Shown one piece after another: positions 880-40,443 of a stretch of 44,355 bases of DNA (within the stretch, counting starts at the first letter, position 1; each line of letters starts with the position of its first letter). The stretch is from the NCBI RefSeq assembly GCF_044324785.1, contig NZ_CP172130.1; one strand, 5' to 3'. The notes under the pieces were generated by a model. It made no database searches and was not told the origin of the DNA. It saw only the letters and a list, made by a program, of their open reading frames with translations. Position numbers and translations under genes: made by a program. This DNA is from Escherichia coli. GTDB taxonomy: Bacteria; Pseudomonadota; Gammaproteobacteria; Enterobacterales; Enterobacteriaceae.

Positions 880-1326
880 ATGGCTAAAATCTATCAATTC
901 CCTCAGGGGGAAGAACGTGCTAAATTCAGGAAAGAAATAGCCAGGGAGCGTAAGAAACGTTTTGCAGTGAAAACAGGGAGCACTTTTGTTAAGTGGCTTG
1001 GCTGGGGATGGTTTTATCTTCGTCTTCTTGTCGCGAGTGTTTTACATTTTATCTTTGTTTTTGTGTTAGCCATTCTTGGTGCGTTTAAATGGGCTGTATT
1101 CTGGCTGGGTGGTATTTTGTGTGTCATCACCTGGTATCATCTCGATCACCAGTTATGGACTCCACAAAATCTGACTATACCGGTGATTACGGCAACCTGG
1201 ATTTTGGGACTGCTGGCTGAGCCTCTGATGGAGCTGCTCAACAAAACTATGCCCTGGCACAAGTTACTTGTTCCCGAACCTGCGGACGAAAGCACCGAGA
1301 ACAGTAGCGAGATAAGCCAGCAATGA
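880..1326 (+). CDS. Small membrane protein immediately downstream of pir (position of bis in R6K/IncX)
   Basis: 148-aa ORF with a basic N-terminus and two or three hydrophobic helices; GAGG-type RBS region; synteny with pir. Assignment as bis is positional only. Confidence 0.5.
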   Translation: MAKIYQFPQGEERAKFRKEIARERKKRFAVKTGSTFVKWLGWGWFYLRLLVASVLHFIFVFVLAILGAFKWAVFWLGGILCVITWYHLDHQLWTPQNLTIPVITATWILGLLAEPLMELLNKTMPWHKLLVPEPADESTENSSEISQQ

Positions 1327-1354: not shown

Positions 1355-1468
1355 CCTTTTCACTGTGATGCAGGATAGGGCAAACGCCGTAAAATGACGT
1401 CATTGACGCCATTTTACGGCGTTTGCCCGGTAACCTACAGTCGGTTCTTATTGGAGAATTTTATGAAA
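1355..1468. promoter_or_regulatory. oriT-like / beta-origin-like element, copy A of a ~110-bp inverted repeat pair; contains a perfect 19-bp palindrome
   Basis: GGGCAAACGCCGTAAAATG...CATTTTACGGCGTTTGCCC palindrome; about 85% identical in inverted orientation to 40331..40443 next to taxA; ends in GGAGAATTTT-ATG. Confidence 0.5.
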
Positions 1469-1819
1469 TATCAGGTGAGAGAGTTTATTAACGAAAAATA
1501 TGCTAAGGCTGTTAATATTTTAAATGATAATCTTAAAGAAAACTACCATGTTTTTTATGGAGTAAGATTAAGTGAGATTCTTTTCCCTGCCAGTGAGTAT
1601 GGCTCTGATGCATTCTTTAAAGAGTTTGAATCAATTAACAGTGTAATACTTCCATTAGTAATATTTGATTTTATAGACCGAAAGCCGATTATGGTTATCG
1701 GCTTCGATAAGATACCTGATGCCAGTTTGTTTGAAGGAACAAATATTGTGGTTCTTGAATGTACTACCCTCGCCGATCTTCTGACAAATGATAACATTTG
1801 TTTTTTATATAAAAGCTAA
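1463..1819 (+). CDS. Hypothetical protein (118 aa)
   Basis: ORF-track frame 1394..1819 trimmed to the ATG preceded by GGAGAA. The upstream 23 codons are simply the translated inverted repeat shared with the taxA upstream region. Confidence 0.5.
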   Translation: MKYQVREFINEKYAKAVNILNDNLKENYHVFYGVRLSEILFPASEYGSDAFFKEFESINSVILPLVIFDFIDRKPIMVIGFDKIPDASLFEGTNIVVLECTTLADLLTNDNICFLYKS

Positions 1820-2793
1820 GAATCTCCTATCAGTTTATATTTTCTGCTTGGGTTGCCAAGTGTTATCGAGTCCAGTTCATGTGAGTAATGATGTGTATGA
1901 TAATGTGCTGGATTTTTCAGATAATCAGGGAGTGATATTATTTTTCCGTAGCTAATTGCAGAATAAAACCAGTTGCGGAATGTCTCGCTGTTTGTTTTTA
2001 AAGCATCTTTTGGAATAAATGCTAATTTTATGTTAGAAACGTAATTAACAGGTTTAAGTGTGGTATGTCTGTTTTGTCCAAAGTCTTTTAAAGCATCTGT
2101 AAATTCATATTCTGATGTATAATTTTCTGTCTTATTACTAGGGTGTTTTATCTGGAATATGAATGAATAGTAGTTCTGGCCAAGTATTTCAACGGTGTTT
2201 GAATTTATGCTCAGTTGTTCAATAACCGCTTCTCTTTTATACTCTAATTTGTCTCTGACAGATTGATATACAACCATTGCTGCATGATGTGAACCACCAC
2301 TGTTTAAAGCCACATATCGGTCAATCCAAGAGTAATATTTAACATTAATAGGATCGCGAGGCTTGAAACCTTCATGCTCAATGTGCCATATATTATCCTC
2401 CCAGTCTGAAATATTTTCAGCTTTCAGATTTTCGGCAGGATACATCCCCTCTCCCCACGAATAAAGATCTTTGAACCAACTACCATTTATTACCTTGCTC
2501 CATCCACAACCGAAACTTTTCGAGTCAGTCAGAGATTGTATTTTGTTAAAATCGAAGTCCAGAGAGTGTTTCTTATCTGTAGTTATTAAGTTGCTCAGAA
2601 TTTCAGCCAGATCCCTGTCAATATATCTCAGTGAGTATTCGCTAAATATATTTTCAAGCTGCAATATGGTGTCTGCATCTGCTGTAGGTTTAAATAACTT
2701 AATATCAGCAAGATTTTTAAACGTTGCTGTGGTCAGTTTATGGTGATCTGTCAACCTGTAGAGGTTACAGATCAATTCGGTTAAATATCTCAT
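1816..2793 (-). CDS. Hypothetical protein (325 aa), AT-rich accessory gene, no recognised domain
   Basis: Long uninterrupted ORF convergent with the 118-aa gene; strongly AT-rich codon usage unlike neighbouring backbone genes. Confidence 0.55.
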   Translation of the reverse strand: MRYLTELICNLYRLTDHHKLTTATFKNLADIKLFKPTADADTILQLENIFSEYSLRYIDRDLAEILSNLITTDKKHSLDFDFNKIQSLTDSKSFGCGWSKVINGSWFKDLYSWGEGMYPAENLKAENISDWEDNIWHIEHEGFKPRDPINVKYYSWIDRYVALNSGGSHHAAMVVYQSVRDKLEYKREAVIEQLSINSNTVEILGQNYYSFIFQIKHPSNKTENYTSEYEFTDALKDFGQNRHTTLKPVNYVSNIKLAFIPKDALKTNSETFRNWFYSAISYGKIISLPDYLKNPAHYHTHHYSHELDSITLGNPSRKYKLIGDS

Positions 2794-5067: not shown

Positions 5068-5592
5068 ATGGCGACTGAGTGGGTGGATGTGGCTGATAAT
5101 GCCGTTAAAATTGGGCTTGGCTCTGCGCTAACAATATTGGGCGGTTATTTGACGCTCAAATTATCACAGCAGCACGAGTTAAGGAAAGAAGCATTAATTC
5201 AGCGACGTAAAGATTTTGAGGTGAAAGCTGAGCGTTACGTGAATTTTTTATCCTGTTCAAGAATGATGTTACAGAAATATATGATGTCCTCATTAAGACA
5301 TGACTGTGAAGATTATATTGAATATACAAGGCTGCATGAAACGGTATCCCTTACATGCGCAAGTAATACTATGAGAAAGCTGGCCTTTGATGCTTACAAC
5401 GCCGTATCTGATGCCTGCACAATGGGAACAGCAAATCGCGATGAAAAAAAACCAGTCAGGGAAAAAGCTAAAGTGGCTTTAGATAAGTTTCAGGGATTTG
5501 CCAGTGAAGAACTACGTCATGAGAAAGCTGCAATTGAGGTAATGAACAAAAAGCGGGCATTTTGGTCCTTTGGGCGACAAACTGCGCGATGA
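5068..5592 (+). CDS. Hypothetical protein with one N-terminal transmembrane helix (174 aa)
   Basis: Hydrophobic segment VKIGLGSALTILGGYLTL followed by a charged, probably coiled-coil region; AT-rich. Confidence 0.5.
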   Translation: MATEWVDVADNAVKIGLGSALTILGGYLTLKLSQQHELRKEALIQRRKDFEVKAERYVNFLSCSRMMLQKYMMSSLRHDCEDYIEYTRLHETVSLTCASNTMRKLAFDAYNAVSDACTMGTANRDEKKPVREKAKVALDKFQGFASEELRHEKAAIEVMNKKRAFWSFGRQTAR

Positions 5593-5841: not shown

Positions 5842-6663
5842 ATGTTGGGTACTTCGTTTCAACAGTTTTCGATAGAGGCGCTTCTTGCTAGTGCTTCACT
5901 ACGCAGTGGACTGACAGCATTGAATAAGTGTAAATATCATGATAAAGGCAGCTTTTATAATGCTTTTTTTCAACTGTCAATTGGTCTGGAACGTTTTTTT
6001 AAAATTATTTATGTTGTTCAGTATATGATTGAAAATGATTTGAATAAACCAACATATATCCATTTGAGGAAATTAGGTCATGATATAAGCATTTTACATC
6101 AAAATGCAGTAAATATTGCAATCAAATACGAGAAAAGAGACAAAGGCAAATGGGTCTTGAATGATGAGCAATCTGCAATATTGACAATGCTATCGGAATT
6201 TGGGAAAGAAACTCGGTATTATAACTTAAATACTATTATTGGAGATAAAAAACTAATGAATGACCCTCTTGAGCAATGGAATTATATTTTGGAGTATTGC
6301 TACTGGAAGTATACTTCAACAACTAAAAGAGAGAGATTGAGTCAAGAAGTAATCTCATGGGCTGAGAGAAATCGATTGTATGGTTTTACTAATGAATTTG
6401 GCCTCGATGGTCATATTATGACGTATGTAGATCAGTATCTATTGAACTGGAAAGTAAACAAAATTTCGCCTTGCATTGCATGGGAAATAATTAGCATGTT
6501 GCAACCGTATTACTTTTTGCTAATGAGATTACGAGATACTGTGCAGTTGATGGAACAAGATAAAGGAATTAAAGACCCTTTAGTACCATACTTTCATGAA
6601 ATTTTCCCATATTTCCTTTTAGATCGTGCAACAGCGAAAAGACGTAGGAATTGGCTTGATTAG
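5842..6663 (+). CDS. Hypothetical protein (273 aa), no recognised domain
   Basis: Long ORF with AGGAG RBS (aaggagtttttATG); AT-rich; co-directional with the upstream 174-aa ORF. Confidence 0.55.
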   Translation: MLGTSFQQFSIEALLASASLRSGLTALNKCKYHDKGSFYNAFFQLSIGLERFFKIIYVVQYMIENDLNKPTYIHLRKLGHDISILHQNAVNIAIKYEKRDKGKWVLNDEQSAILTMLSEFGKETRYYNLNTIIGDKKLMNDPLEQWNYILEYCYWKYTSTTKRERLSQEVISWAERNRLYGFTNEFGLDGHIMTYVDQYLLNWKVNKISPCIAWEIISMLQPYYFLLMRLRDTVQLMEQDKGIKDPLVPYFHEIFPYFLLDRATAKRRRNWLD

Positions 6664-6988: not shown

Positions 6989-7084
6989 TCAATCGATGAA
7001 CTGACGGATCAGTTCCAGAACTGCAATCAGCGCGTTTGCAACGGCGACCACAGCCCTGAGAACGATGATTAACAGGTTAATCAT
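6989..7084 (-). CDS. Candidate type I toxin: 31-aa hydrophobic peptide MINLLIIVLRAVVAVANALIAVLELIRQFID (DinQ/TisB-like)
   Basis: ATG with GGAG 6 nt upstream; the SD lies in a CUCCAG/CUGGAG hairpin; single transmembrane helix; absent from the ORF track because it is under 60 aa. Confidence 0.4.
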   Translation of the reverse strand: MINLLIIVLRAVVAVANALIAVLELIRQFID

Positions 7085-18902: not shown

Positions 18903-19364
18903 TTACTGCTCATCTGTTACTCCGTTCAAACTCTTATTGATACGAAAATCTTCCAGAGAACGCCCGGCTTTCAACGCTTCATCAATCGGTTTTGGCGCAC
19001 GTCCACGACCAGACCAGTATTTCGTTTCACCATTTTCTTCAAATTGATACTTGGGTGGCGCTTTTGGTAACGTTTTTTTACGTGATTTTGGTGCTTCTTC
19101 GGACAGACCAAGCAGTTCTTCCGGTGAGAAACCCTCTCCGGCGATTAACTGAAGCAGTTCCTGACGTTTCCGTTCACGCTCTGCTCGTTCAGCCGCTTCA
19201 CGTTCAGCATCTTCACGACGTTCTTCAATAACAACGTTGAGCTTTTCCTGCATTTCGAGCAACTGCTCAAAATCAATCTCACGGGCAAACACACGCAATG
19301 AACGAATATTCATCATAGTCCGGCTGATAATGCCGTATTCATCTTCTTTAGTCAGTTCGCTCAT
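18903..19364 (-). CDS. hns: Plasmid-encoded H-NS-family nucleoid-associated protein
   Basis: 153 aa; N-terminal coiled-coil oligomerisation region and C-terminal DNA-binding motif (YWSGRGRAPK) characteristic of H-NS. Confidence 0.8.
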   Translation of the reverse strand: MSELTKEDEYGIISRTMMNIRSLRVFAREIDFEQLLEMQEKLNVVIEERREDAEREAAERAERERKRQELLQLIAGEGFSPEELLGLSEEAPKSRKKTLPKAPPKYQFEENGETKYWSGRGRAPKPIDEALKAGRSLEDFRINKSLNGVTDEQ

Positions 19365-19379
19365 AATTAATCCTCTTGT

Positions 19380-19586
19380 TTAATGGACGTACTTCCATAC
19401 GCCGGAAGGAACCTTATCATAAAGTTTATTCATCACCAGTTCTGCACGGCGGTGATCTGCGGCAGAATAAAATGCCTCTGATTCTGATAAAGGCAGCTTG
19501 TAACGGTTAATCTCAATAACTTTTTCAAGAGTATCTCTTGATGTACATTTTCTTAACTGAAAAAGCCATTCCTGCTTTGTTTTCAC
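19380..19586 (-). CDS. hha: Hha/YmoA-family H-NS co-regulator
   Basis: 68-aa protein with Hha-like sequence (…[15 protein letters not shown]…); sits between topB and hns. Confidence 0.75.
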
Positions 19587-21736
19587 TTCTTAGCCCTTGC
19601 CGGAAAACCCAGCTTCCCTGTTTTCTTATCCTCAAGGACAAGAACTGTATCATACGTTCCACCACTTTTCTTTTTAAATCCCTTAATCAAATCGGTTTTC
19701 CCTGATTTAACCAGTTTTTCGGCCTGTGCCTGGGTGATTTTCTTACCAGAAAACTCACTCCAGATTTTAAATTCACATCCGGTACAGAAATAACCTTTCG
19801 GCCTGATAACAATATGTTTACCACAGGAAGGGCAGGGAGAGTCCAGGCGTTGAAACTGCCCTGCTGGCGCAGCGGGTTCAATCTTCATCTCGCCCAGGTC
19901 AACATCAGAAATCATGCCTGTCAGTTCACCGTACAGCTCATTAATAAACTCTTCAACCGTCAGGTCGCCATTTTCAATGGCTGTCTGCTTTTCAGACCAT
20001 AATGCTGTCATATCAGGATTAACCGCTATACCAGGCAGGGCATCAATAAGCGCATATCCGGTATCAGTAGGAATAAGTTTCCCTTTTTCCAGCGTGATAT
20101 AGTTTCTTTTCTTCAGCGTTTCCAGAATGGCTGCGCGGGTAGCTGGCGTACCAATGCCACCATGTTCATCTTTTTTGTCTTTATCCTTATCCTTCAACAA
20201 TTTTTTAATTGTTGGATCAGTGACAAAATCCGCGACACGAACAAGCGCAGCAAGCAAGGAGGCTTCGGTGAATAACGGCGGCGGTGTTGTTTTCTTCTCA
20301 TTAACAATAACTTCTTTTGTCGTCAGTGTTTCTCCTGTGCGAATTTTACAGAGCAGTTCAAAAGCGGAATCATCATTATCTTCTGATTCACCTTCGTCTG
20401 TGGTTTCCGCGCCAAGAAACGCCTCAAATCCGCTGTCAGTTGTTTTTCTGGCACGGGCATAGAACGACTCATCACCACACTGAATGGCAACCGATACTTC
20501 CTGGTATGCTTTTTCAGGCATGAACTGAACAAGATAGTGTTGTGCGATCGCCAGGTAAACATTGCGCTCGTCGGTACTGAGTGCGTTAACATCAGGCACA
20601 CTGGCGGTCGGGATTATCGCAGTATGCGCAGTCACCTTTGCACTGTTAAACGCCTTGCTTTTACGTGAAGAATCAATATCCAGCGACTGAGGAAAGACTG
20701 ATTTCAGGGCATCGATAACCTGCGGCGCTTCGCTGAATTGTTCATCAGAAAGATATGAGCAATCAGAGCGGTTATAAGTAATCGCTTTATATTTTTCACG
20801 TAATTGTTGCGTAATATCCAGCGTTTTTTGTGCCGTCATTTTGAACTTTTTGTTCATGTATTGCTGGAGTCTGACCAGGTTAAACGGCAACGGCGCAGCC
20901 GTTTTTTTATCATCAGTTGCTGCCGCTTCAACTGTAGCCGGTTTTCCTGCAAGGGATGCTGCCGTTCCGTCTGCCCACGCTTTATCAAGTAATTTACGGT
21001 CTGTCAGCGGAGCAAATTCCCCTGGCTTCCAGTTCGCCCTGATAACATCAGCACCACGCTGAAAGACTCCGGTCATGGTGTAGTAAAAACTGGATTTATG
21101 GTTCTGGTTAGCACGGGTACGATTCACAATCAGGCCAAGAACGGGCGTCTGGACGCGCCCGACAGACAGAACGCCCTGATATCCTCTGGCTTTTGCAGGA
21201 ATGGTGTAAGCACGCGTCATGGAGAAGCCATAGACGGCATCAGCAACTGAACGCGCCAGCGCCTTAAGGTAAAGCCCTTTGAAATCACGATTATCTTTAA
21301 GATTTGCCAGTGCCTTTTTCACTGCCGGAAGCGTGTTGTCGTTAATCAGAACGCGCTTTACGGGTTTTGTGTTTCCTGCATATTCCAGGACTTCATCAAC
21401 AAGTAGCTGTCCCTCATCATCAGGATCGCCAGCGTGAACAATTTCAGTCACGTCTCCACGTCTGATAAGTTCGAGAATCGTTTTAACCTGTTTTGCTGCA
21501 CTTTCAACAGGCTGATACTTCACGGGATAAAGACGTAAAGGAAGCGTTTCAACCTTCCAGGCTTTGTATTCAGGATTATAGTTTTCCGGCGGTTGTGATT
21601 CGATAATATGACCAAAACAGTTAGTCACAATGGCGTTATCACTTTCAAACCAGCCATCATGACGGGTGAAATTGCCCCCAAGAGCCTTAACAATATCATT
21701 TGCTACTGCGGGTTTTTCTGCAATAAAAAGTTTCAT
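19583..21736 (-). CDS. topB: DNA topoisomerase III (type IA) with C-terminal zinc-ribbon domains
   Basis: 717 aa; N-terminal TOPRIM (MKLFIAEKP...), type IA core, C-terminal Cys-rich repeats (CPSCGK..., CTGC...). Confidence 0.85.
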
Positions 21737-21740
21737 TTTG

Positions 21741-22328
21741 TTATCCTTTACATTGAATTAATCTTTTGGCACAACGGATAGCGCGTTCTTCTGATACTTC
21801 CTGTTGCCAGTTATCTTCACTTACAGGTTGTTTGAATCTGCGCTCACAGCCATTAAAGGCAAAAATTCCCTCACGGTTAAGTATATTAGTTGCAATATCC
21901 CAGTCTTTAATTCTCAAAAAGGCTGTTACAGCAAAACCAGAATACGAAGCAATTTTTGAAATGATGCATTCATCAGCTTTTATTAACGCGGCAAAAGGAA
22001 CTATCTTCTGATGACCACACGAAATCATAGGGAGTGTGTGAATATCATAATAAGCTATTGAATGACAATCCATGCGGGTGTCATCAATAGCTGCCAGCCA
22101 GAATCCTGTCTGGTCTTTTATTTTTCTGCTAATATCAGAATCTGAAACACCAGGATTTAATAAATATCCACCATAGCAGACATGGAAGGGGTGAACAGAT
22201 TCATCAATATCAGGAAGTTCTTTTACCGGATTTTCTTTCCAGTCCTTCAGAACACCAAATTCAAGAGCATCCAGCAAAAACTTTCGTTCAAATCCATCAA
22301 ACAATGCATATTGCATAATAACCACCAA
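21741..22328 (-). CDS. Hypothetical protein (195 aa)
   Basis: ORF 5 bp upstream of topB on the same strand; no recognised motif. True start may be the internal ATG (MQYALF...). Confidence 0.5.
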   Translation of the reverse strand: MVVIMQYALFDGFERKFLLDALEFGVLKDWKENPVKELPDIDESVHPFHVCYGGYLLNPGVSDSDISRKIKDQTGFWLAAIDDTRMDCHSIAYYDIHTLPMISCGHQKIVPFAALIKADECIISKIASYSGFAVTAFLRIKDWDIATNILNREGIFAFNGCERRFKQPVSEDNWQQEVSEERAIRCAKRLIQCKG

Positions 22329-22340
22329 AGAGTATCTGAT

Positions 22341-22958
22341 TTATATAACTAATGCACTTTCAATAGACGGTTGTCTTTTGAATAAAGAACAATCTGTATT
22401 CAATCGTTCAGACTGAATAGTGTGAAGTAAAAGGCTTTCTTCTCTGGACAGAAGGAAGTCACCCCATTCGAACTCTTTCCACATATCATGACTGTTTTCA
22501 CCAGGCTTATTTAATAAGGACTCCATTTTGGGCTGGATTCTGGCTGGAGGATTATTTTCATAAGCTGAATGTACCCTGTCACTCCACTTATCAAAAGAAC
22601 CATTTAATAGAATTTCCTGTGATACCATATCAAAATCATCATCTTCTATATAGGTATTTACCCGATGATAAATCAATCCCATATCTTCAATATCCCAGGT
22701 GTATATAGTAGTAAACCATCTTAATTTTTTATCTGTTTGCAAAACGAGGCCATTGACTGACTTTCTTCCTTTTCGCATTCCAACCCATAAACATTTGTTA
22801 GGCCACGGTCTCCCCACAGATAATGATTTATCATCAATAGTTAAATTAAGTTCAGGTATGGAGATAGATTTAAGACTACATTTATTAGCCATTCGATGAA
22901 AAAGTTTAGGTACAATATGCAAGTACATATAGATTTCCTTTATCTTTAGTGTGCTCAA
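22341..22958 (-). CDS. Hypothetical protein (205 aa)
   Basis: Co-directional, tightly spaced with neighbours; AT-rich; no recognised motif. Confidence 0.5.
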   Translation of the reverse strand: MSTLKIKEIYMYLHIVPKLFHRMANKCSLKSISIPELNLTIDDKSLSVGRPWPNKCLWVGMRKGRKSVNGLVLQTDKKLRWFTTIYTWDIEDMGLIYHRVNTYIEDDDFDMVSQEILLNGSFDKWSDRVHSAYENNPPARIQPKMESLLNKPGENSHDMWKEFEWGDFLLSREESLLLHTIQSERLNTDCSLFKRQPSIESALVI

Positions 22959-23275
22959 ATAAGTCCTGATTTGTTGATATCGATACCAGACTTATCAGCA
23001 AGAGCGACCAAAAACTTTTCCTGTGAATCAAGCCAACCACTTACCCACGGATATTCATCCAGAATTTCAGGATGTTGATTCTTTATAAGTTCAAGCAGTT
23101 CTCTGTTTTCAGATATTCGCTTATTAACACCGCCCTGTGTGCGCTTTATCGTTTCAGACAGTGAATTGAGTCTGTAATGGACACGCCTGTAATATTTAAC
23201 AACTATAAATAAAATCACAATCAAAGCTATAACCCATACGCAGAACAATACTTCTGAAAATAAATGGATATTCAT
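22955..23275 (-). CDS. Hypothetical membrane-anchored protein (106 aa, one N-terminal transmembrane helix)
   Basis: Hydrophobic N-terminus LFCVWVIALIVILFIVV; 4-bp overlap with the downstream gene. Confidence 0.5.
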   Translation of the reverse strand: MNIHLFSEVLFCVWVIALIVILFIVVKYYRRVHYRLNSLSETIKRTQGGVNKRISENRELLELIKNQHPEILDEYPWVSGWLDSQEKFLVALADKSGIDINKSGLI

Positions 23276-23334
23276 TTAAGCCTCCTTAATTTTATGCCGC
23301 CATTTCATCCATTATGACTGTGAAGTATTCAGCA

Positions 23335-23739
23335 TTAGTATTCATCTTCATAAGGTAGCCAATCGTAATCGTTTGAGTTCCAGTCAATTGGAAGAAATGG
23401 CTCTGTTTGTTTATGGCAGGAGAGGCAAACATAAATATTTTTCTCTTTATGAAAAATCATCGACTTACATTTATCACAGTCGCACCAACCCTCGACTGGT
23501 TCAGGGCATTCAGGTAATTCTATCTCCTGATGTTTACCATATTTTTTCCATTCCTCGGCATCCTGATAACCTCCCCATACTGCTTGTGTAAAACTGTCGA
23601 TATAGTCACCTGACTTATTTTTATCAAAATTAAATTTATATACTTCGCCATTTAGTTCAAATGACAGATCAAGGTCAGGTAGTAATTGCTTTTCGAAGCG
23701 TTGTTGTAACTCTTTCTTTTCTTTGGGGGATAAAGCCAT
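23335..23739 (-). CDS. Hypothetical Cys-rich protein (134 aa), putative zinc ribbon
   Basis: C-terminal CPEPVEGWCDCDKC...CLSCHK cluster. Confidence 0.5.
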   Translation of the reverse strand: MALSPKEKKELQQRFEKQLLPDLDLSFELNGEVYKFNFDKNKSGDYIDSFTQAVWGGYQDAEEWKKYGKHQEIELPECPEPVEGWCDCDKCKSMIFHKEKNIYVCLSCHKQTEPFLPIDWNSNDYDWLPYEDEY

Positions 23740-23754
23740 AAAAACCTCTATCAG

Positions 23755-24291
23755 TTAGTTATGTTTGTATCGCCACTCCCACGGTGGAACCGGATTTGCA
23801 TCGGCCCACAAACCGCGTTTTTGTTCCTGAGCTTCCCGTTGTAGAGCCGGTAATGACTCATCCACGTTGTAACGTTCATATACCCATGCAGCGCCAGACT
23901 GAACCATAAAGCGGCTGGCATCCGTGCCGTTCGTCGTGAACACATGACCGATAATGCGTCCGTAGCGGTCTTTATGTGAATAAGAGACTGTCACCTGTTT
24001 ACCTGCAACCAGAGTTTTAAGCTGACTAGTTGACCAGCGTCCAAAAGGTTGTTTCTTTTCAGGGGCATCGATGTTTATCAATCGGACTCGGATCGGAACT
24101 TCATACACAACAATTTTTGCGGGTAGTGTTTTAATTTCTATAGTGTCGCCATCGAGAACACGAATAACTTTCCCCTGGATTTCCAGGTTTAATGTAGAAA
24201 GTATTCCTGCTAAAGCACCAGGTATTCCACCTGCATTTGCAGACTGAAAAGCAGTAAACAGGAATAAAATCACGCTTAAAAAAATCCTCAT
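23755..24291 (-). CDS. Secreted thermonuclease (SNase-like) family nuclease
   Basis: N-terminal signal peptide (MRIFLSVILFLFTAFQSANA); conserved SNase-like motifs (VIRVLDGDTI, RLINIDAPE, KDRYGRI..., GLWAD). Confidence 0.75.
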   Translation of the reverse strand: MRIFLSVILFLFTAFQSANAGGIPGALAGILSTLNLEIQGKVIRVLDGDTIEIKTLPAKIVVYEVPIRVRLINIDAPEKKQPFGRWSTSQLKTLVAGKQVTVSYSHKDRYGRIIGHVFTTNGTDASRFMVQSGAAWVYERYNVDESLPALQREAQEQKRGLWADANPVPPWEWRYKHN

Positions 24292-24722
24292 TCAACGTCT
24301 CCTTTTCTCTTTCTACGATAAAATAGTTCTTCCAGTGCACAAAAATTAAAGGTAAACCAGACCACAAAGCCAATAACAACTGACGACCAATAAAAATATC
24401 GAATAGAACCGTCAACAGATTCCTGCCAGTCAGCAGCATCAACTAACGTTGTTATACATTTATTTTTTAATACATGTTCAGTTGTGGAGTTTGTCAACTC
24501 CATATCCTGTGGTACGCCCTTTTCGAAAAGACAGACGTTAACCTTATCAGAAGGAGTATCGGTTATAAGCCCCCTAGCCTCTTTTAAAAATGAACCAGCA
24601 GTTGAGTTATTAAACGAAAAAAACATAAAAACAACAAATAAAGATATTGATGGGGCTGTGATAAAACTAAAAACAAAAACTTGCCGAAGCATACGATTGA
24701 CATAACTAAATTTATTCATCAT
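24288..24722 (-). CDS. Hypothetical integral membrane protein (144 aa)
   Basis: Several hydrophobic segments; 4-bp overlap with the nuclease gene. Confidence 0.5.
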   Translation of the reverse strand: MMNKFSYVNRMLRQVFVFSFITAPSISLFVVFMFFSFNNSTAGSFLKEARGLITDTPSDKVNVCLFEKGVPQDMELTNSTTEHVLKNKCITTLVDAADWQESVDGSIRYFYWSSVVIGFVVWFTFNFCALEELFYRRKRKGDVE

Positions 24723-24803: not shown

Positions 24804-25061
24804 TCAGAAGAATTCTGGATAAATTTTAACCTCATTAATTTCTTCAACTGAAATACGCTCTGGCATAGTCCTCGAACAATACTTTGTGAGAGGAGTTTCT
24901 TTGCAGTTACCTGCTTTACCGGGCGCAATCGTTGCCTCGTAGTTATGAATGATGGCGTTCATAGTCTTATCATCCAATGCATGAGCAGGATTACCAGCTA
25001 TAAAGCCAGAGTGCCCTGCTTTTATTGCATTAAGAAAATCAATCTTTTCTTTTTTTTTCAT
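24804..25061 (-). CDS. Hypothetical protein (85 aa)
   Basis: ORF within the transfer-region gene string. Confidence 0.4.
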   Translation of the reverse strand: MKKKEKIDFLNAIKAGHSGFIAGNPAHALDDKTMNAIIHNYEATIAPGKAGNCKETPLTKYCSRTMPERISVEEINEVKIYPEFF

Positions 25062-37610: not shown

Positions 37611-37819
37611 TCGTCAGGAATATCAGCCCCATGAATAAGCTCTTTCATCGCCTGAGATTTGTATTTTTTAATAAGATACTGAACAAAACCAGAATCAGAG
37701 ATACGCCTCCCCCTCTTGAAACTTATTTCAATTGCAATTTTTTCAACTTCAACACGAACTTCTGTAGGAAGGTAGAGTACATTGCGTTGCGGTTTCCGCT
37801 TTCCTTTTATAGCTGTCAT
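37607..37819 (-). CDS. Small basic protein (70 aa) upstream of pilX1, possible regulator
   Basis: ORF with 4-bp overlap onto pilX1; overlaps the 3' end of the actX frame in another frame, so one of the two boundaries is uncertain. Confidence 0.35.
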   Translation of the reverse strand: MTAIKGKRKPQRNVLYLPTEVRVEVEKIAIEISFKRGRRISDSGFVQYLIKKYKSQAMKELIHGADIPDE

Positions 37820-38303
37820 TTTTTAACCTGTCGTATTTTCTGTTACACACATAGTCGGCAAAGACTTGTCCACGCTTTGAAGCGTCTGCAAGGAGAAGTA
37901 TTTTTGCCAGACAGGAGTTATTCATCAGGCTTAAATTCATCGAAAAAATCTTCTCCTGCTCTTTTACTTCATTTATGACACTTAGAGGAACTTCAGCAGG
38001 ATATTCACCAAAACTGACCAGTCCATAAACATTTTTCATCCGGGTAAAGCAGGATGGATGTACAACCTCAAAATCCAGAAGAACGAATACATAACCGGGA
38101 AACATTGGCATGATTTGTCCCCTGTATGCACTACAGTCACGCCTCTTATAGAAAGTGCGTATAACTGGATTGTAGTAAGCGATACCGCTCCGGGATAACT
38201 GCAACAGAACCGACTGATGAAAATGCGGAGAACACTGAAGCAGGTAAAACTGTTTCTGTCCTTTCATACTCAATCCCCGATATACAGATGTGACAAAACA
38301 CAA
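37749..38303 (-). CDS. actX: NusG/RfaH-like transcription antiterminator (ActX-type activator of the pilX operon)
   Basis: Family assignment is mainly positional (first gene of the pilX operon), with weak sequence resemblance to NusG-like proteins; probable true start at the internal ATG (MKGQKQFYLL...). Confidence 0.6.
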   Translation of the reverse strand: MCFVTSVYRGLSMKGQKQFYLLQCSPHFHQSVLLQLSRSGIAYYNPVIRTFYKRRDCSAYRGQIMPMFPGYVFVLLDFEVVHPSCFTRMKNVYGLVSFGEYPAEVPLSVINEVKEQEKIFSMNLSLMNNSCLAKILLLADASKRGQVFADYVCNRKYDRLKNDSYKRKAETATQCTLPSYRSSC

Positions 38304-39792: not shown

Positions 39793-40334
39793 ATCTCCAC
39801 TTTATTTGAAACAGTTCTCCCTTTACATAACATAATGTAATTCTCAAACTGATTCTTAAGATTAAAAATTTCTGTTGTAAGACGCTCCGCATCCTGATAG
39901 AAACCATCTTTATCAAGAACCCTGGTCTGATCATTAACAATGATATAATGGAAATTACGACCGATCTTATCAATTGAATTACGGCAACGATTCATCATCA
40001 GCAGTTCCTGGTCAAAGAAATCCAGTTCATTTTCAAGTGTCGTCTGTATGCGGTAACGACATTCTCGTGATAACGTCCATCCGTGACGATTAGCAGCTCT
40101 TTCAATATCAGCCCTTTGTTTACCTGTTAAGTACATCGTTGTTTTGATAAAATCATTATTATCAAAAAACGTATTTATATCCTTACTGACAGCTTTACTT
40201 TTTAATAAAGCATTTGCTAAAAGTTTCATGCCTTTAGCTACTGTTAAAGCTGGTTCATCCGGATAAAGAGTTTTAAGGCAATCCAGCAAATCATCATGCT
40301 GATTTTCATCAATTCTGAATTGAACTTTTTTCAT
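39789..40334 (-). CDS. taxA: Relaxosome accessory protein
   Basis: 181 aa from the ATG preceded by GGAGAA; the 23-codon extension in the ORF track is the translated inverted repeat. Confidence 0.65.
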   Translation of the reverse strand: MKKVQFRIDENQHDDLLDCLKTLYPDEPALTVAKGMKLLANALLKSKAVSKDINTFFDNNDFIKTTMYLTGKQRADIERAANRHGWTLSRECRYRIQTTLENELDFFDQELLMMNRCRNSIDKIGRNFHYIIVNDQTRVLDKDGFYQDAERLTTEIFNLKNQFENYIMLCKGRTVSNKVEM

Positions 40335-40443
40335 AAAATTCTCCAACAAGAACCGACTGTAGGTCACCGGGCAAATGTTGCGGAATGGCGTCAGAGACGT
40401 CATTTTGCAGTGTTTGCCCTATCCTGCATCGCAGTGAATCTGG
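40331..40443. promoter_or_regulatory. oriT-like / alpha-origin-like element, copy B of the inverted repeat pair
   Basis: About 85% identical (inverted) to 1355..1468, including the GGGCAAAC...GTTTGCCC palindrome and the shared GGAGAATTTTATGAAA translation start. Confidence 0.5.

What the first reader, a model, noticed from the sequence alone, without database searches (positions are those of the whole stretch)
21741..23739. Uncharacterised four-gene operon between topB and the secreted nuclease
Four co-directional, closely spaced ORFs (195 aa, 205 aa, 106 aa with one transmembrane helix, 134 aa with a CxC..CxxC zinc-ribbon-like cluster) have no recognisable catalytic motifs. They lie between the H-NS/Hha/TopB module and an SNase-like nuclease. 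The combination of membrane anchor, Zn-ribbon protein and two unknown proteins is worth testing as a defence, exclusion or establishment module.
Basis: inference. Interest (0 to 1): 0.55.

Follow-up and report, generated by a model that had tools for sequence, protein, structure and literature searches.

The report
Variable accessory genes before plasmid topB
Four real but uncharacterised small genes sit at the tail of an IncX1 resistance plasmid's transfer operon, in a slot whose contents are swapped between related plasmids. They behave as independent accessory genes rather than one four-part system, and no tool result assigns them a function.

Summary
The four ORFs exist, all on the minus strand, and are conserved coding genes (dN/dS 0.04-0.44). 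The window is a complete IncX1 plasmid. The genes are not a self-contained operon. They lie in a long co-directional unit: prfaH/actX, pilX1-11, taxB, Cag12, TrbM, SNase, the four genes, topB, hha, hns. The only strong terminator follows hns/orf87.

They are not IncX core. IncX3 has an AAA+ ATPase in this slot, IncX4 mcr-1 plasmids have nothing, and IncI2 has PcfJ. Each gene has its own distribution (249 to 2231 plasmid records). Only 59 of 1379 matching records carry about the whole block.

- orf205 is a Pfam DUF6012 protein, predicted as a beta-sandwich.
- orf195 (really 191 aa) belongs to a Pfam-less family found in conjugation clusters from Enterobacteria to Bacillus.
- orf106 is membrane-anchored; its soluble domain recurs near topoisomerase III in IncP-like plasmids.
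- orf134 carries a conserved six-Cys/His zinc module.

None matches defence, phage, NCBIfam or PDB libraries.

Best reading: a recombination hotspot holding independent, probably non-enzymatic, host- or DNA-transaction-interfering proteins. The hotspot structure is shown here; the function is inferred. Interest is modest.

The parts
23335..23739 (-). orf134: acidic (pI 4.6) 134-aa protein. The N-terminal half is found only in its close relatives. The C-terminal ~50-aa module has six Cys and one His (CP-x6-WCDCxKCK-x13-CLxCHK...NSNDWL).
   Evidence: ORF; pI. Invariant C78/C86/C88/C91/C105/C108/H109. No significant Pfam hit (best 0.11). No PDB sequence match. Found in 313 plasmid records. The zinc module alone is reused at the N-terminus of L009_144 (64% identity).
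22955..23275 (-). orf106: N-terminal membrane anchor (residues 8-26) plus a conserved helical domain (about residues 46-93) that is probably cytoplasmic.
   Evidence: Found in 249 plasmid records, but only residues 35-99 are conserved outside IncX. Soluble homologues lie two genes upstream of topoisomerase III in an IncP-type plasmid and also occur in Cupriavidus. Borderline SpoIISA_toxin hit, i-E 0.0018.
22341..22928 (-). DUF6012 protein (195 aa from the ATG; the longest ORF runs to 22958). The predicted fold is almost entirely beta-strand, a sandwich.
21741..22316 (-). orf191 (191 aa from the ATG; the longest ORF runs to 22328). Member of a family with no Pfam model. Its stop codon is 4 nt from the topB start.
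23755..24291 (-). Upstream conserved flank of the slot: thermonuclease (SNase) with a signal peptide.
   Evidence: The 3' end (about 23754-23771) is the left breakpoint shared by IncX1, IncX3 and IncX4 plasmids and by the IncI2 remnant.
18903..21736 (-). Downstream module topB-hha-hns (the Sfx-type H-NS). It lies on the same strand and is separated from orf191 by 4 nt.
   Evidence: The orf191-topB-hha module is shared at about 94-96% identity with IncX4 and IncI2 plasmids.
18554..18575 (-). First strong terminator-like hairpin downstream of the block, after orf87. Probable end of the long transcription unit.
37749..38303 (-). actX/prfaH (NusG/RfaH-like antiterminator) at the head of the pilX-taxB unit that runs into the block.
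   Evidence: Annotation. Its antiterminator function in IncX1 and IncX3 plasmids was shown experimentally in PMC11880322.
40329..40438 (.). oriT-alpha arm of the 110-nt long inverted repeat (partner arm at 1359-1468). Carries a nic-like TATCCTGC motif at 40420 on the + strand. It is used here to place the block outside the leading region.
   Evidence: The two oriTs within long inverted repeats of IncX plasmids are described in PMC3402527.

Best explanation
The region is a cargo slot, not a four-component machine.

Shown here:
- The four genes lie at the distal end of the long minus-strand transfer unit: prfaH/actX, pilX1-11, taxB, Cag12, TrbM, orf85, orf144, SNase, then orf134, orf106, DUF6012, orf191, then topB, hha, hns.
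- The interval between the 3' end of the SNase gene and the 5' end of orf191/topB is a recombination hotspot with conserved flanks.
- Different IncX1, IncX3, IncX4, IncX-like and IncI2 plasmids carry different cargo in that interval.
- Each of the four genes belongs to a separate plasmid-borne family with its own distribution.

Inferred:
- The genes are transcribed by read-through with the T4SS genes. This happens when PrfaH antitermination is on and plasmid H-NS/Hha repression is off, that is, in transfer-competent donors and in fresh transconjugants.
- Their products are small, probably non-enzymatic binding proteins: a beta-sandwich, a zinc module with an acidic tail, a membrane-tethered helical domain, and an alpha/beta protein with no matching solved fold.
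- Each acts on its own to bias host or plasmid DNA transactions in the plasmid's favour, in an establishment, anti-defence-like or host-interference role. In this they would work alongside TopB, Hha and H-NS.
- Turnover of the slot reflects conflict-driven or host-specific selection.
For: Structure of the locus (shown):
- Whole-plasmid map and strand.
- No internal terminator; short gaps between genes.
- PrfaH antitermination and H-NS repression of the IncX1/IncX3 transfer operon are shown experimentally in PMC11880322.

Variable slot with fixed flanks:
- IncX4 mcr-1 plasmid: TrbM, then orf191.
- IncX4 and IncX3: SNase, AAA+ ATPase, then orf191 or topB.
- IncX4: SNase, orf106, 250-aa gene, 91-aa gene, orf191.
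- IncX4: SNase, orf134, orf191, with a 60-nt DUF6012 remnant.
- IncX-like: SNase, zinc-module protein, 101-aa gene, 128-aa gene, DUF6012, topB.
- Metagenome contig: SNase, orf134, DUF6012, topB.
- IncI2: SNase remnant, PcfJ, orf191, topB, hha.

Independent distributions:
- 313, 249, 2231 and 1204 plasmid records for the four genes.
- 313 records have IncX1-type TaxB (at least 95% identity) and 952 have IncX3-type TaxB.
- Only 59 records carry the full block.

Real genes: dN/dS 0.04-0.44.

Non-enzymatic look:
- High-confidence AF2 models with only generic or no PDB neighbours.
- No hits in NCBIfam, PADLOC, PHROGs or PDB sequences.

Context of homologues elsewhere:
- DUF6012 sits in co-directional arrays of small ORFs beside orphan methyltransferases. 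These include DUF4942/YdiA, a leading-region-enriched family in the supplement of PMC11541004. It also sits beside a PAPS-reductase-like gene and an HNH gene.
- An orf191 homologue occurs in the gene set SSB, TopB, H-NS, PcfJ, Hha, SNase.

Modularity typical of conflict proteins:
- DUF6012 is fused to at least five different C-terminal domains.
- One of these is homologous to its upstream neighbour in Klebsiella plasmids.
- Another is homologous to the C-terminal domain of the zinc-module protein L009_144.
Against: - No direct functional evidence exists for any of the four genes.
- The block is not in the leading region. It lies about 22-28 kb from either oriT along the direction of transfer, whereas known plasmid anti-defence genes concentrate in the leading region (PMC11541004).
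- No known anti-defence, SSB or PsiB gene is adjacent in the window.
- Conserved polar residues leave an enzymatic role open. In DUF6012 these are H4, N44, K45, H88, D96, R118 and R175. In orf191 they are D16, E19, N147, R148 and E158.
- Read-through transcription is inferred from a consensus scan only.
- The context sample for homologues is small (about 14 DUF6012 and about 10 orf191 neighbourhoods) and partly non-independent, because several are IncX relatives.
Confidence: 0.4

Rival explanations
1. TopB accessory factors. orf191 and/or DUF6012 (and perhaps the orf106 domain) bind the plasmid topoisomerase III. They would load or regulate it on conjugative or replicative DNA intermediates. 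In this reading the slot holds alternative TopB partners.
For: - The orf191 stop is 4 nt from the topB start.
- The orf191-topB-hha unit is shared by IncX1, IncX4 and IncI2 plasmids.
- DUF6012 lies directly upstream of two divergent TopB types in L009, L031 and L032.
- DUF6012 lies one gene downstream of TopB in a non-IncX relaxase-TopB element, L016.
- orf106-domain homologues lie two genes upstream of topoisomerase III in an IncP-type plasmid.
- An orf191 homologue occurs in the gene set SSB-TopB-HNS-PcfJ-Hha-SNase.
Against: - Most sampled homologues have no TopB nearby. For DUF6012 these are IncHI2, Klebsiella IncFIB/HI1B, Pseudomonas and Xanthomonas plasmids and loci L015, L017, L018 and L020. 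For orf191 these are Vibrio, Bacillus and loci L022-L024.
- IncX3 TopB is preceded by an AAA+ ATPase instead.
- Three of the DUF6012-TopB adjacencies are IncX relatives, so they may reflect shared ancestry rather than selection.
Confidence: 0.2
2. Donor-side conjugation accessory proteins. The products would fine-tune T4SS, pilus or DNA-processing functions without being essential.
For: - The genes lie on the transfer-gene strand with no terminator between them and taxB/pilX, so co-transcription is likely.
- orf191 homologues sit inside conjugation clusters in very different plasmids: after VirD4-TrbM-PcfJ (L024), after TraF/lytic transglycosylase (Vibrio), inside a T4SS/Tad-like cluster (L023), and in the pXO2-like transfer region of Bacillus.
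- orf106 is membrane-anchored.
Against: - IncX3 plasmids and IncX4 mcr-1 plasmids lack three or all four genes and are still typed as conjugative.
- Deleting the hypothetical genes around the IncX3 transfer region changed transfer less than 12-fold (PMC11880322). Those were not the same four genes.
- DUF6012 is usually not in transfer clusters.
Confidence: 0.15
3. Inter-plasmid competition (fertility inhibition or exclusion of rival elements). This would be analogous to FipA, Osa and PifC, which are encoded next to transfer genes.
For: - The position next to TrbM/KikA and a nuclease resembles the kikA-nuc-fipA neighbourhood of IncN plasmids (own knowledge; R46 map).
- Rapid cargo turnover is expected for competition genes.
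Against: - R46 DUF6710, which I take to be FipA, shows no similarity to any of the four proteins or to the orf191 or DUF6012 profiles.
- There is no Osa/ParB-like or PifC-like domain.
- An EexN entry-exclusion lipoprotein is already present in the pilX cluster.
Confidence: 0.1
4. An anti-phage defence, abortive-infection or toxin-antitoxin cassette. For example, orf106 would be a membrane toxin neutralised by a neighbouring gene product.
For: - Borderline Pfam hit of orf106 to SpoIISA_toxin (i-E 0.0018).
- The slot holds an AAA+ ATPase in IncX3 and IncX4, with weak P-loop-only hits to IetA/IteA models.
- The locus shows hotspot behaviour.
Against: - There were no PADLOC hits for any of the four genes, even at E <= 1.
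- No nuclease, NTPase or other effector domain is present.
- orf106 has different downstream partners in different plasmids.
- Its homologues outside IncX lack the TM segment.
- The plasmid already carries stbDE (RelE/ParE) and a DinQ-like type I toxin.
Confidence: 0.07

Closest known systems
Leading-region anti-defence islands of conjugative plasmids (Samuel & Burstein 2024, PMC11541004)
   Same: - Arrays of small, co-directional, mostly unannotated plasmid genes with high turnover.
- DUF6012 homologues elsewhere sit next to orphan methyltransferases, including DUF4942/YdiA, a family enriched in leading regions.
- Relative to oriT-alpha, the genes are on the strand whose template is the transferred strand.
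   Different: - The block lies 22-28 kb from either oriT in the direction of transfer. It is not in the 5.3-kb segment between the two oriTs, which is the leading region.
- No known anti-defence, SSB or PsiB gene and no Frpo-type element was identified next to it.
- Neither DUF6012 nor its Pfam accession PF19475 appears in the supplementary files of that paper held as text.
IncX topB-(hha)-hns/sfx module, the plasmid nucleoid or 'stealth' functions (PMC11796372, PMC11880322)
   Same: - Same strand, with no terminator found between the four genes and this module.
- Immediately adjacent (4-nt gap).
- Exchanged together with orf191 between IncX1, IncX4 and IncI2 plasmids.
   Different: - topB and hns are listed as IncX backbone genes, and hns/Sfx has a demonstrated role in repressing conjugation.
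- The four genes are variable and have no demonstrated role.
- They have no DNA-binding or topoisomerase domains.
Variable-gene hotspots with conserved flanks in conjugative elements, such as the SXT/R391 ICE hotspots (own knowledge, not tested here)
   Same: Fixed insertion interval between conserved backbone genes, holding alternative cargo in different relatives.
   Different: - This slot is small (0-2 kb) and lies inside a transfer operon.
- Its cargo consists mostly of small proteins of unknown function rather than recognisable defence or resistance genes.
kikA-nuc-fipA neighbourhood of IncN plasmids pKM101/R46
   Same: A TrbM/KikA-like gene and a secreted nuclease lie next to accessory genes at the edge of the T4SS cluster.
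   Different: - The IncN nuclease is a phospholipase-D-type enzyme, not an SNase.
- FipA (DUF6710) is unrelated to any of the four proteins.

Membership tests
Pfam DUF6012 (PF19475) | Significant, near full-length match to the family HMM | tested here: met
   E = 3.8e-35; residues 11-203 of the 205-aa ORF align to model positions 1-196 of 200. RefSeq also names it a DUF6012 family protein.
[quoted passage not shown] | Present in all IncX subgroups at a syntenic position | tested here: not met
   IncX3 has none of the four genes. IncX4 mcr-1 plasmids have only orf191. Other IncX4 and IncX-like plasmids have other combinations. Only 59 of 1379 records carry the whole block.
Single multi-gene system (a functional module) | The component genes co-occur and keep their order across relatives | tested here: not met
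   Record counts are 313, 249, 2231 and 1204. Alternative combinations were observed. A deletion variant keeps a 60-nt DUF6012 remnant.
Self-contained operon | Own promoter upstream of the first gene and a terminator after the last | tested here: not met
   There is a 15-nt gap to the SNase gene and a 4-nt gap to topB. No minus-strand terminator-like site occurs before 18575. This rests on a consensus scan only; no transcript data were available.
Known anti-phage defence systems (PADLOC-DB 2.0) | At least one component matches a defence-protein model | tested here: not met
   no families for any of the four proteins at E <= 1. Only the neighbouring SNase matches a candidate model.
Leading-region anti-defence island | Located in the first kilobases that enter the recipient, just downstream of the nic site | tested here: not met
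   The oriT long inverted repeat is at 1359-1468 and 40329-40438, with nic-like motifs at 1370 (-) and 40420 (+). The block is therefore 22-28 kb along the transfer path. The nic position is inferred from similarity to the RP4 nic motif (own knowledge). That motif occurs 12 times in the window, so it is weak on its own.
Leading-region anti-defence island | Co-located with known anti-defence, SSB, PsiB or orphan methyltransferase genes | tested here: inconclusive
   Not met in the window. Met for DUF6012 homologues in other plasmids: DUF4942, Dam-like and N6 methyltransferases.
Zinc-ribbon proteins | Two conserved Cys knuckles (CxxC-type) about 10-20 residues apart | tested here: met
   C88-x2-C91 and C105-x2-C108, plus C78, C86 and H109, are invariant in 9 sequences. 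No Pfam zinc-ribbon family is matched significantly (best 0.11). Metal binding was not tested.
SpoIISA-type membrane toxin (type II TA) | Significant match to the toxin family and a conserved adjacent antitoxin | tested here: not met
   The i-Evalue of 0.0018 is above the tool's 0.001 line for a significant domain. The downstream partner differs between plasmids, and homologues outside IncX lack the TM segment.
FipA fertility-inhibition protein (DUF6710, IncN) | Sequence homology to FipA | tested here: not met
   no BLASTP hit, and scores below zero against the orf191 and DUF6012 profiles. The identification of R46 DUF6710 as FipA is from my own knowledge.
TopB-associated accessory proteins (proposed here, not an established family) | Adjacency to a type IA topoisomerase gene across independent plasmid backbones | tested here: inconclusive
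   Adjacent in IncX1, IncX4 and IncI2 plasmids and in loci L009, L016, L025, L031, L032 and L013. Absent in most other sampled contexts.
'DNA topoisomerase III' and 'exodeoxyribonuclease V subunit beta' (names given to orf191 and orf134 in public records) | Toprim/Topoisom_bac domains, or RecB helicase-nuclease domains, respectively | tested here: not met
   No Pfam, NCBIfam or PDB match. The proteins are 191 and 134 aa. The names appear.

The most novel reading that the evidence does not exclude
DUF6012, the orf134-type zinc module and the small 'X' domain are linked by gene fusions and recur next to plasmid topoisomerase III. The X domain is free-standing in L027, fused to the zinc module in L009_144, and fused to DUF6012 in P0133, P0223 and P0234. 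Together with the orf191 family, which has no Pfam model, these could form a previously unrecognised modular class of conjugation-linked proteins. Such proteins would either neutralise recipient defences or redirect TopB during plasmid establishment. They would be encoded outside the leading region and expressed by read-through of the transfer operon.
Probability: 0.15. Interest if true: 0.6.

Novelty: new member of a known kind. Interest (0 to 1): 0.3.

Why it matters
IncX1, IncX4 and IncI2 plasmids are major vehicles of mcr-1, tet(X4), blaNDM and other last-line resistance genes. orf191 alone is present in about 1200 sequenced plasmids and DUF6012 in about 2200, yet neither has a known role.

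If the slot upstream of topB collects establishment or anti-defence factors outside the leading region, that would widen where such genes are looked for. It could also help explain differences in host range and fitness between closely related resistance plasmids.

Two practical points follow:
- The public names 'DNA topoisomerase III' (orf191) and 'exodeoxyribonuclease V subunit beta' (orf134) are unsupported by any domain or fold evidence and should not be propagated.
- The four genes should be tested singly, not as one system.

Tried and rejected
- NCBIfam, PADLOC and PHROGs scans of all four proteins found nothing.
- Pfam recognised only DUF6012.
- PDB sequence searches with profiles or single sequences found nothing.
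- AFDB50 Foldseek for orf191 found only uncharacterised family members. Pseudouridine-synthase hits at E 0.01-0.06 and TM about 0.3 were rejected.
- hhalign of the orf191 profile against the DUF6012 profile showed they are unrelated (probability 0.2%).
- FipA/DUF6710 of R46 as a relative: rejected.
- The 196-aa gene between TopB and DUF6012 in L016 as an orf191 homologue: rejected.
- P0082, an SNase::orf134 'fusion' protein, is a single sequence that looks like an internal deletion joining the two genes. It was not used as evidence.
- The AAA+ ATPase of the IncX3/IncX4 slot as a known defence ATPase: only P-loop-local hits, so rejected as evidence.
- Literature searches for DUF6012, for the RefSeq protein accessions and for PcfJ function gave nothing usable.
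- The search for related loci with the 76-sequence and 14-sequence DUF6012 alignments failed because no stretch was conserved enough. The 6-sequence alignment returned only 3 loci, so the planned neighbourhood statistic could not be made.
- The nic-like motif YATCCTGY occurs 12 times in the window, so on its own it does not locate oriT. The 110-nt inverted repeat does.
Full report
**What is there.** The window is a complete IncX1 conjugative plasmid. It is 100% identical over the queried 2.5 kb to E. coli pAMSC5. Its ORF coordinates match those of the 44,362-bp Salmonella IncX1 plasmid NZ_CP104489.1 to within a 7-bp offset. The four ORFs exist on the minus strand: orf134 (23739..23335), orf106 (23275..22955), a 205-aa ORF (22958..22341) and a 195-aa ORF (22328..21741).

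The last two most likely start at the ATGs at 22928 and 22316, giving 195 and 191 aa. Three things support this:
- Shine-Dalgarno-like sequences upstream.
- The RefSeq gene models.
- Family N-termini that begin exactly there.

All four genes are under purifying selection in pairwise comparisons with alleles from other plasmids (dN/dS 0.04-0.44). For orf134 the closest comparison has only six differences. orf106 has one strong TM segment (residues 8-26). orf134 has an invariant C78/C86/C88/C91/C105/C108/H109 cluster followed by an NSNDWL motif.

**Operon context.** The four genes are not a unit of their own. On the minus strand the plasmid carries one long co-directional series:
- stbDE, small ORFs, taxA/ddp1, the taxC relaxase;
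- actX/prfaH, pilX1-11, taxB (VirD4), Cag12 lipoprotein, TrbM/KikA;
- orf85, orf144, a secreted SNase;
- orf134, orf106, DUF6012, orf191;
- topB, hha, hns, orf87.

Gaps inside the block are 15-59 nt, and the gap to topB is 4 nt. The first strong minus-strand terminator-like hairpin downstream is at 18575-18554, after orf87. Promoter-like matches are not above the shuffled expectation. Published experiments show that the NusG-like PrfaH (ActX) is an antiterminator required for virB/pilX expression in IncX1 and IncX3 plasmids. They also show that plasmid H-NS represses it (PMC11880322; see also PMC11796372). That the four genes are transcribed by read-through of this unit is my inference.

**The proteins.**
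- *orf106 and orf134.* No significant Pfam, NCBIfam, PHROG, PADLOC or PDB hits.
- *Public names.* 'DNA topoisomerase III' for orf191 and 'exodeoxyribonuclease V subunit beta' for orf134 have no domain or fold support.

**Core or variable?** Variable. The cargo between the SNase gene (or TrbM) and orf191/topB differs by plasmid:

| Plasmid | Gene order in the slot |
|---|---|
| This window (IncX1) | SNase, orf134, orf106, DUF6012, orf191, topB |
| IncX4 mcr-1 | TrbM, orf191, topB (nothing between) |
| IncX4 (L011) | SNase, AAA+ ATPase (420 aa), orf191 |
| IncX3 (L026) | SNase, AAA+ ATPase, topB, hns (none of the four genes) |
| IncX4 (L012) | SNase, orf106 (95%), 250-aa gene, 91-aa gene, orf191 |
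| IncX4 (L029) | SNase, orf134, orf191 |
| IncX-like, Citrobacter (L009) | SNase, zinc-module protein, 101-aa gene, 128-aa gene, DUF6012 (71%), topB, hns (no orf191) |
| Metagenome contigs (L030/L031) | SNase, orf134, DUF6012, TopB (86%), Hha |
| Providencia (L032) | TaxB, Cag12, TrbM, ..., DUF6012 (54%), TopB (38%) |
| IncI2 mcr-1 (L008) | unannotated SNase remnant, PcfJ, orf191, topB, hha (orf191 96% at protein level) |

blastn places the breakpoints at the SNase 3' end (about 23754-23771) and at the orf191 5' end (22316-22342). The L029 variant lacks 23310..22401 but keeps the last 60 nt of DUF6012, so it is a deletion derivative.

Record counts in PLSDB:
- orf134: 313.
- orf106: 249, of which only 96 are at least 80% identical.
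- DUF6012: 2231.
- orf191: 1204.
- TaxB at least 95% identical (IncX1-type): 313; TaxB 90-95% identical (IncX3): 952.

Only 59 of 1379 DNA-matching records cover at least 80% of the 2.5-kb query.

**Contexts elsewhere and fusions.**
- DUF6012 occurs on IncHI2, Klebsiella IncFIB/HI1B, Pseudomonas and Xanthomonas plasmids and on metagenomic plasmids. It is typically inside co-directional arrays of small unknown ORFs, often next to orphan methyltransferases, a PAPS-reductase-like gene or an HNH gene. The methyltransferases include DUF4942/YdiA, a Dam-like enzyme and an N6_Mtase. DUF4942/YdiA is among the families enriched in plasmid leading regions (supplement of PMC11541004).
- In L016 the order is NikA, relaxase, TopB, a 196-aa gene, DUF6012.
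- About 300-aa DUF6012 proteins carry at least five different C-terminal extensions. One extension (P0123) is homologous to the gene upstream of DUF6012 in the Klebsiella plasmid (54% identity over 92 aa). Another (P0133, P0223, P0234) is homologous to the C-terminal domain of the zinc-module protein L009_144, though more weakly (44% over 54 aa, about 38-44 bits). That domain is free-standing in L027. This is a Rosetta-stone-type hint that the zinc-module and DUF6012 families work in the same process.
- orf191 homologues at 31-54% identity lie after VirD4-TrbM-PcfJ (L024), inside a T4SS/Tad-like cluster (L023), in a small-ORF array (L022), and in the gene set SSB-TopB-HNS-PcfJ-Hha-SNase-x-x-orf191 (L025).
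- In Vibrio pVA1-type plasmids orf191 homologues follow TraF and a lytic transglycosylase. In a Bacillus pXO2-like plasmid a homologue sits in the transfer region.
- The soluble domain of orf106 recurs two genes upstream of topoisomerase III in an IncP-type mcr-1 plasmid and in a Cupriavidus plasmid.

**Position relative to oriT.** IncX plasmids have two oriTs within long inverted repeats (PMC3402527). The window has a 110-nt inverted repeat at 1359-1468 and 40329-40438 (87% complementary). Each arm carries a TATCCTGC motif like the RP4 nic sequence (own knowledge), at 1370 on the minus strand and 40420 on the plus strand. Whichever copy is used, the 5.3 kb between them enters the recipient first. 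That segment holds small ORFs at 40.6-42.6 kb, stbDE and pir. The four-gene block follows 22-28 kb later, so it is not in the leading region.

**Interpretation.** Shown here: real genes; the tail of a transfer-gene series; a hotspot with fixed flanks; four independent families; no known catalytic or defence domains. Inferred: co-expression with the T4SS and TopB/Hha/H-NS, and individual roles as binding proteins that help the plasmid cope with the host (establishment or anti-defence-like). I give this 0.4.

Rivals:
- TopB accessory factors (0.2). Supported by recurrent adjacency, weakened by the many TopB-less contexts.
- Non-essential donor-side conjugation helpers (0.15). Best fit for orf191.
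- Inter-plasmid competition (0.1). FipA is unrelated.
- Defence or toxin-antitoxin cassette (0.07). PADLOC is negative, partners vary, and the SpoIISA hit is borderline.

**Comparison and novelty.** The genes are already annotated as hypothetical proteins in hundreds to thousands of public plasmid records, and one is a Pfam DUF. What this analysis adds:
- They are not one system.
- They occupy an exchangeable slot shared by IncX1, IncX3, IncX4 and IncI2 backbones.
- orf191 belongs to a widespread, Pfam-less, conjugation-cluster-associated family.
- DUF6012 is a modular beta-sandwich family linked by fusions to its neighbours.

This is a new member of a known kind (a variable accessory or hotspot region of a conjugative plasmid), of modest interest unless the fusion-linked, TopB-proximal module proves functional.

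**Caveats.**
- The neighbourhood samples are small and partly non-independent.
- The planned genome-wide neighbourhood scan returned only three loci.
- Transcription and oriT usage are inferred.
- No experiment bears directly on any of the four genes.

Noticed in passing
window 18107-18194 (+) and 6989-7084 (-): An Rfam AgrB antisense sRNA (68.8 bits) lies at 18.1 kb. The DinQ-like type I toxin gene dqlB (MINLLIIVLRAVVAVANALIAVLELIRQFID) lies at 7.0 kb. The IS26/integron resistance region (about 7.1-18.0 kb, higher GC) sits between the toxin gene and its presumed antisense regulator.
   Followed up: partly
window 1359-1468 and 40329-40438: A 110-nt long inverted repeat (87% complementary) marks the two IncX oriT copies. 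Each arm has a TATCCTGC nic-like motif in opposite orientation. The 5.3 kb between them (small ORFs at 40.6-42.6 kb, stbDE, pir) would therefore be the leading region from either oriT. None of the five small ORFs tested there has a significant NCBIfam match.
   Followed up: partly
window 21741-22316 and 23335-23739; P0005, P0008, P0060-P0066: Public records name the 191-aa protein 'DNA topoisomerase III' and the 134-aa protein 'exodeoxyribonuclease V subunit beta'. No domain, profile or fold result supports either name, so this looks like propagated misannotation.
   Followed up: yes
L008:3570-4047 (IncI2 mcr-1 plasmid pHLJ109-92): An unannotated remnant of the IncX-type SNase gene, 92% identical, lies upstream of PcfJ-orf191-topB-hha. 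This indicates that the IncI2 module derives from, or was exchanged with, the IncX arrangement.
   Followed up: partly
L026:5642-6904 and L011:3818-5080: IncX3 plasmids and some IncX4 plasmids carry a 420-aa classic-clade AAA+ ATPase in the same slot, directly upstream of topB or orf191. It matches PF00004 and is closest to proteasome-activating nucleotidase, CDC48 and FtsH models. Its N-terminal 180 residues are unassigned.
   Followed up: partly
window 24288-24722 (orf144) and 24804-25061 (orf85): Two more unassigned genes lie between TrbM and the SNase. orf144 has hydrophobic segments at both ends, and its stop overlaps the SNase start by 4 nt. In IncX3 and some IncX4 plasmids an unrelated 102-108-aa membrane protein occupies that position. 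orf85 has 47-62% identical relatives in IncX4 plasmids.
   Followed up: no
window 1816-2793 (-), 5068-5592 (+), 5842-6663 (+), 880-1326 (+): Other backbone ORFs with no NCBIfam assignment. One of them is annotated in RefSeq as a DUF6685 protein. In another IncX-like plasmid (L027) a DUF6685 gene lies just downstream of hns.
   Followed up: no
L033:7001-7576 (Bacillus paranthracis plasmid), L034:6001-6582 (Vibrio pVPA3-1): Distant orf191 homologues (28-40% identical to the Vibrio alginolyticus homologue used as query) sit inside the conjugation regions of a pXO2-like Gram-positive plasmid and of the shrimp-pathogen pVA1-type plasmid. The family therefore spans phyla and tracks transfer clusters.
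   Followed up: partly
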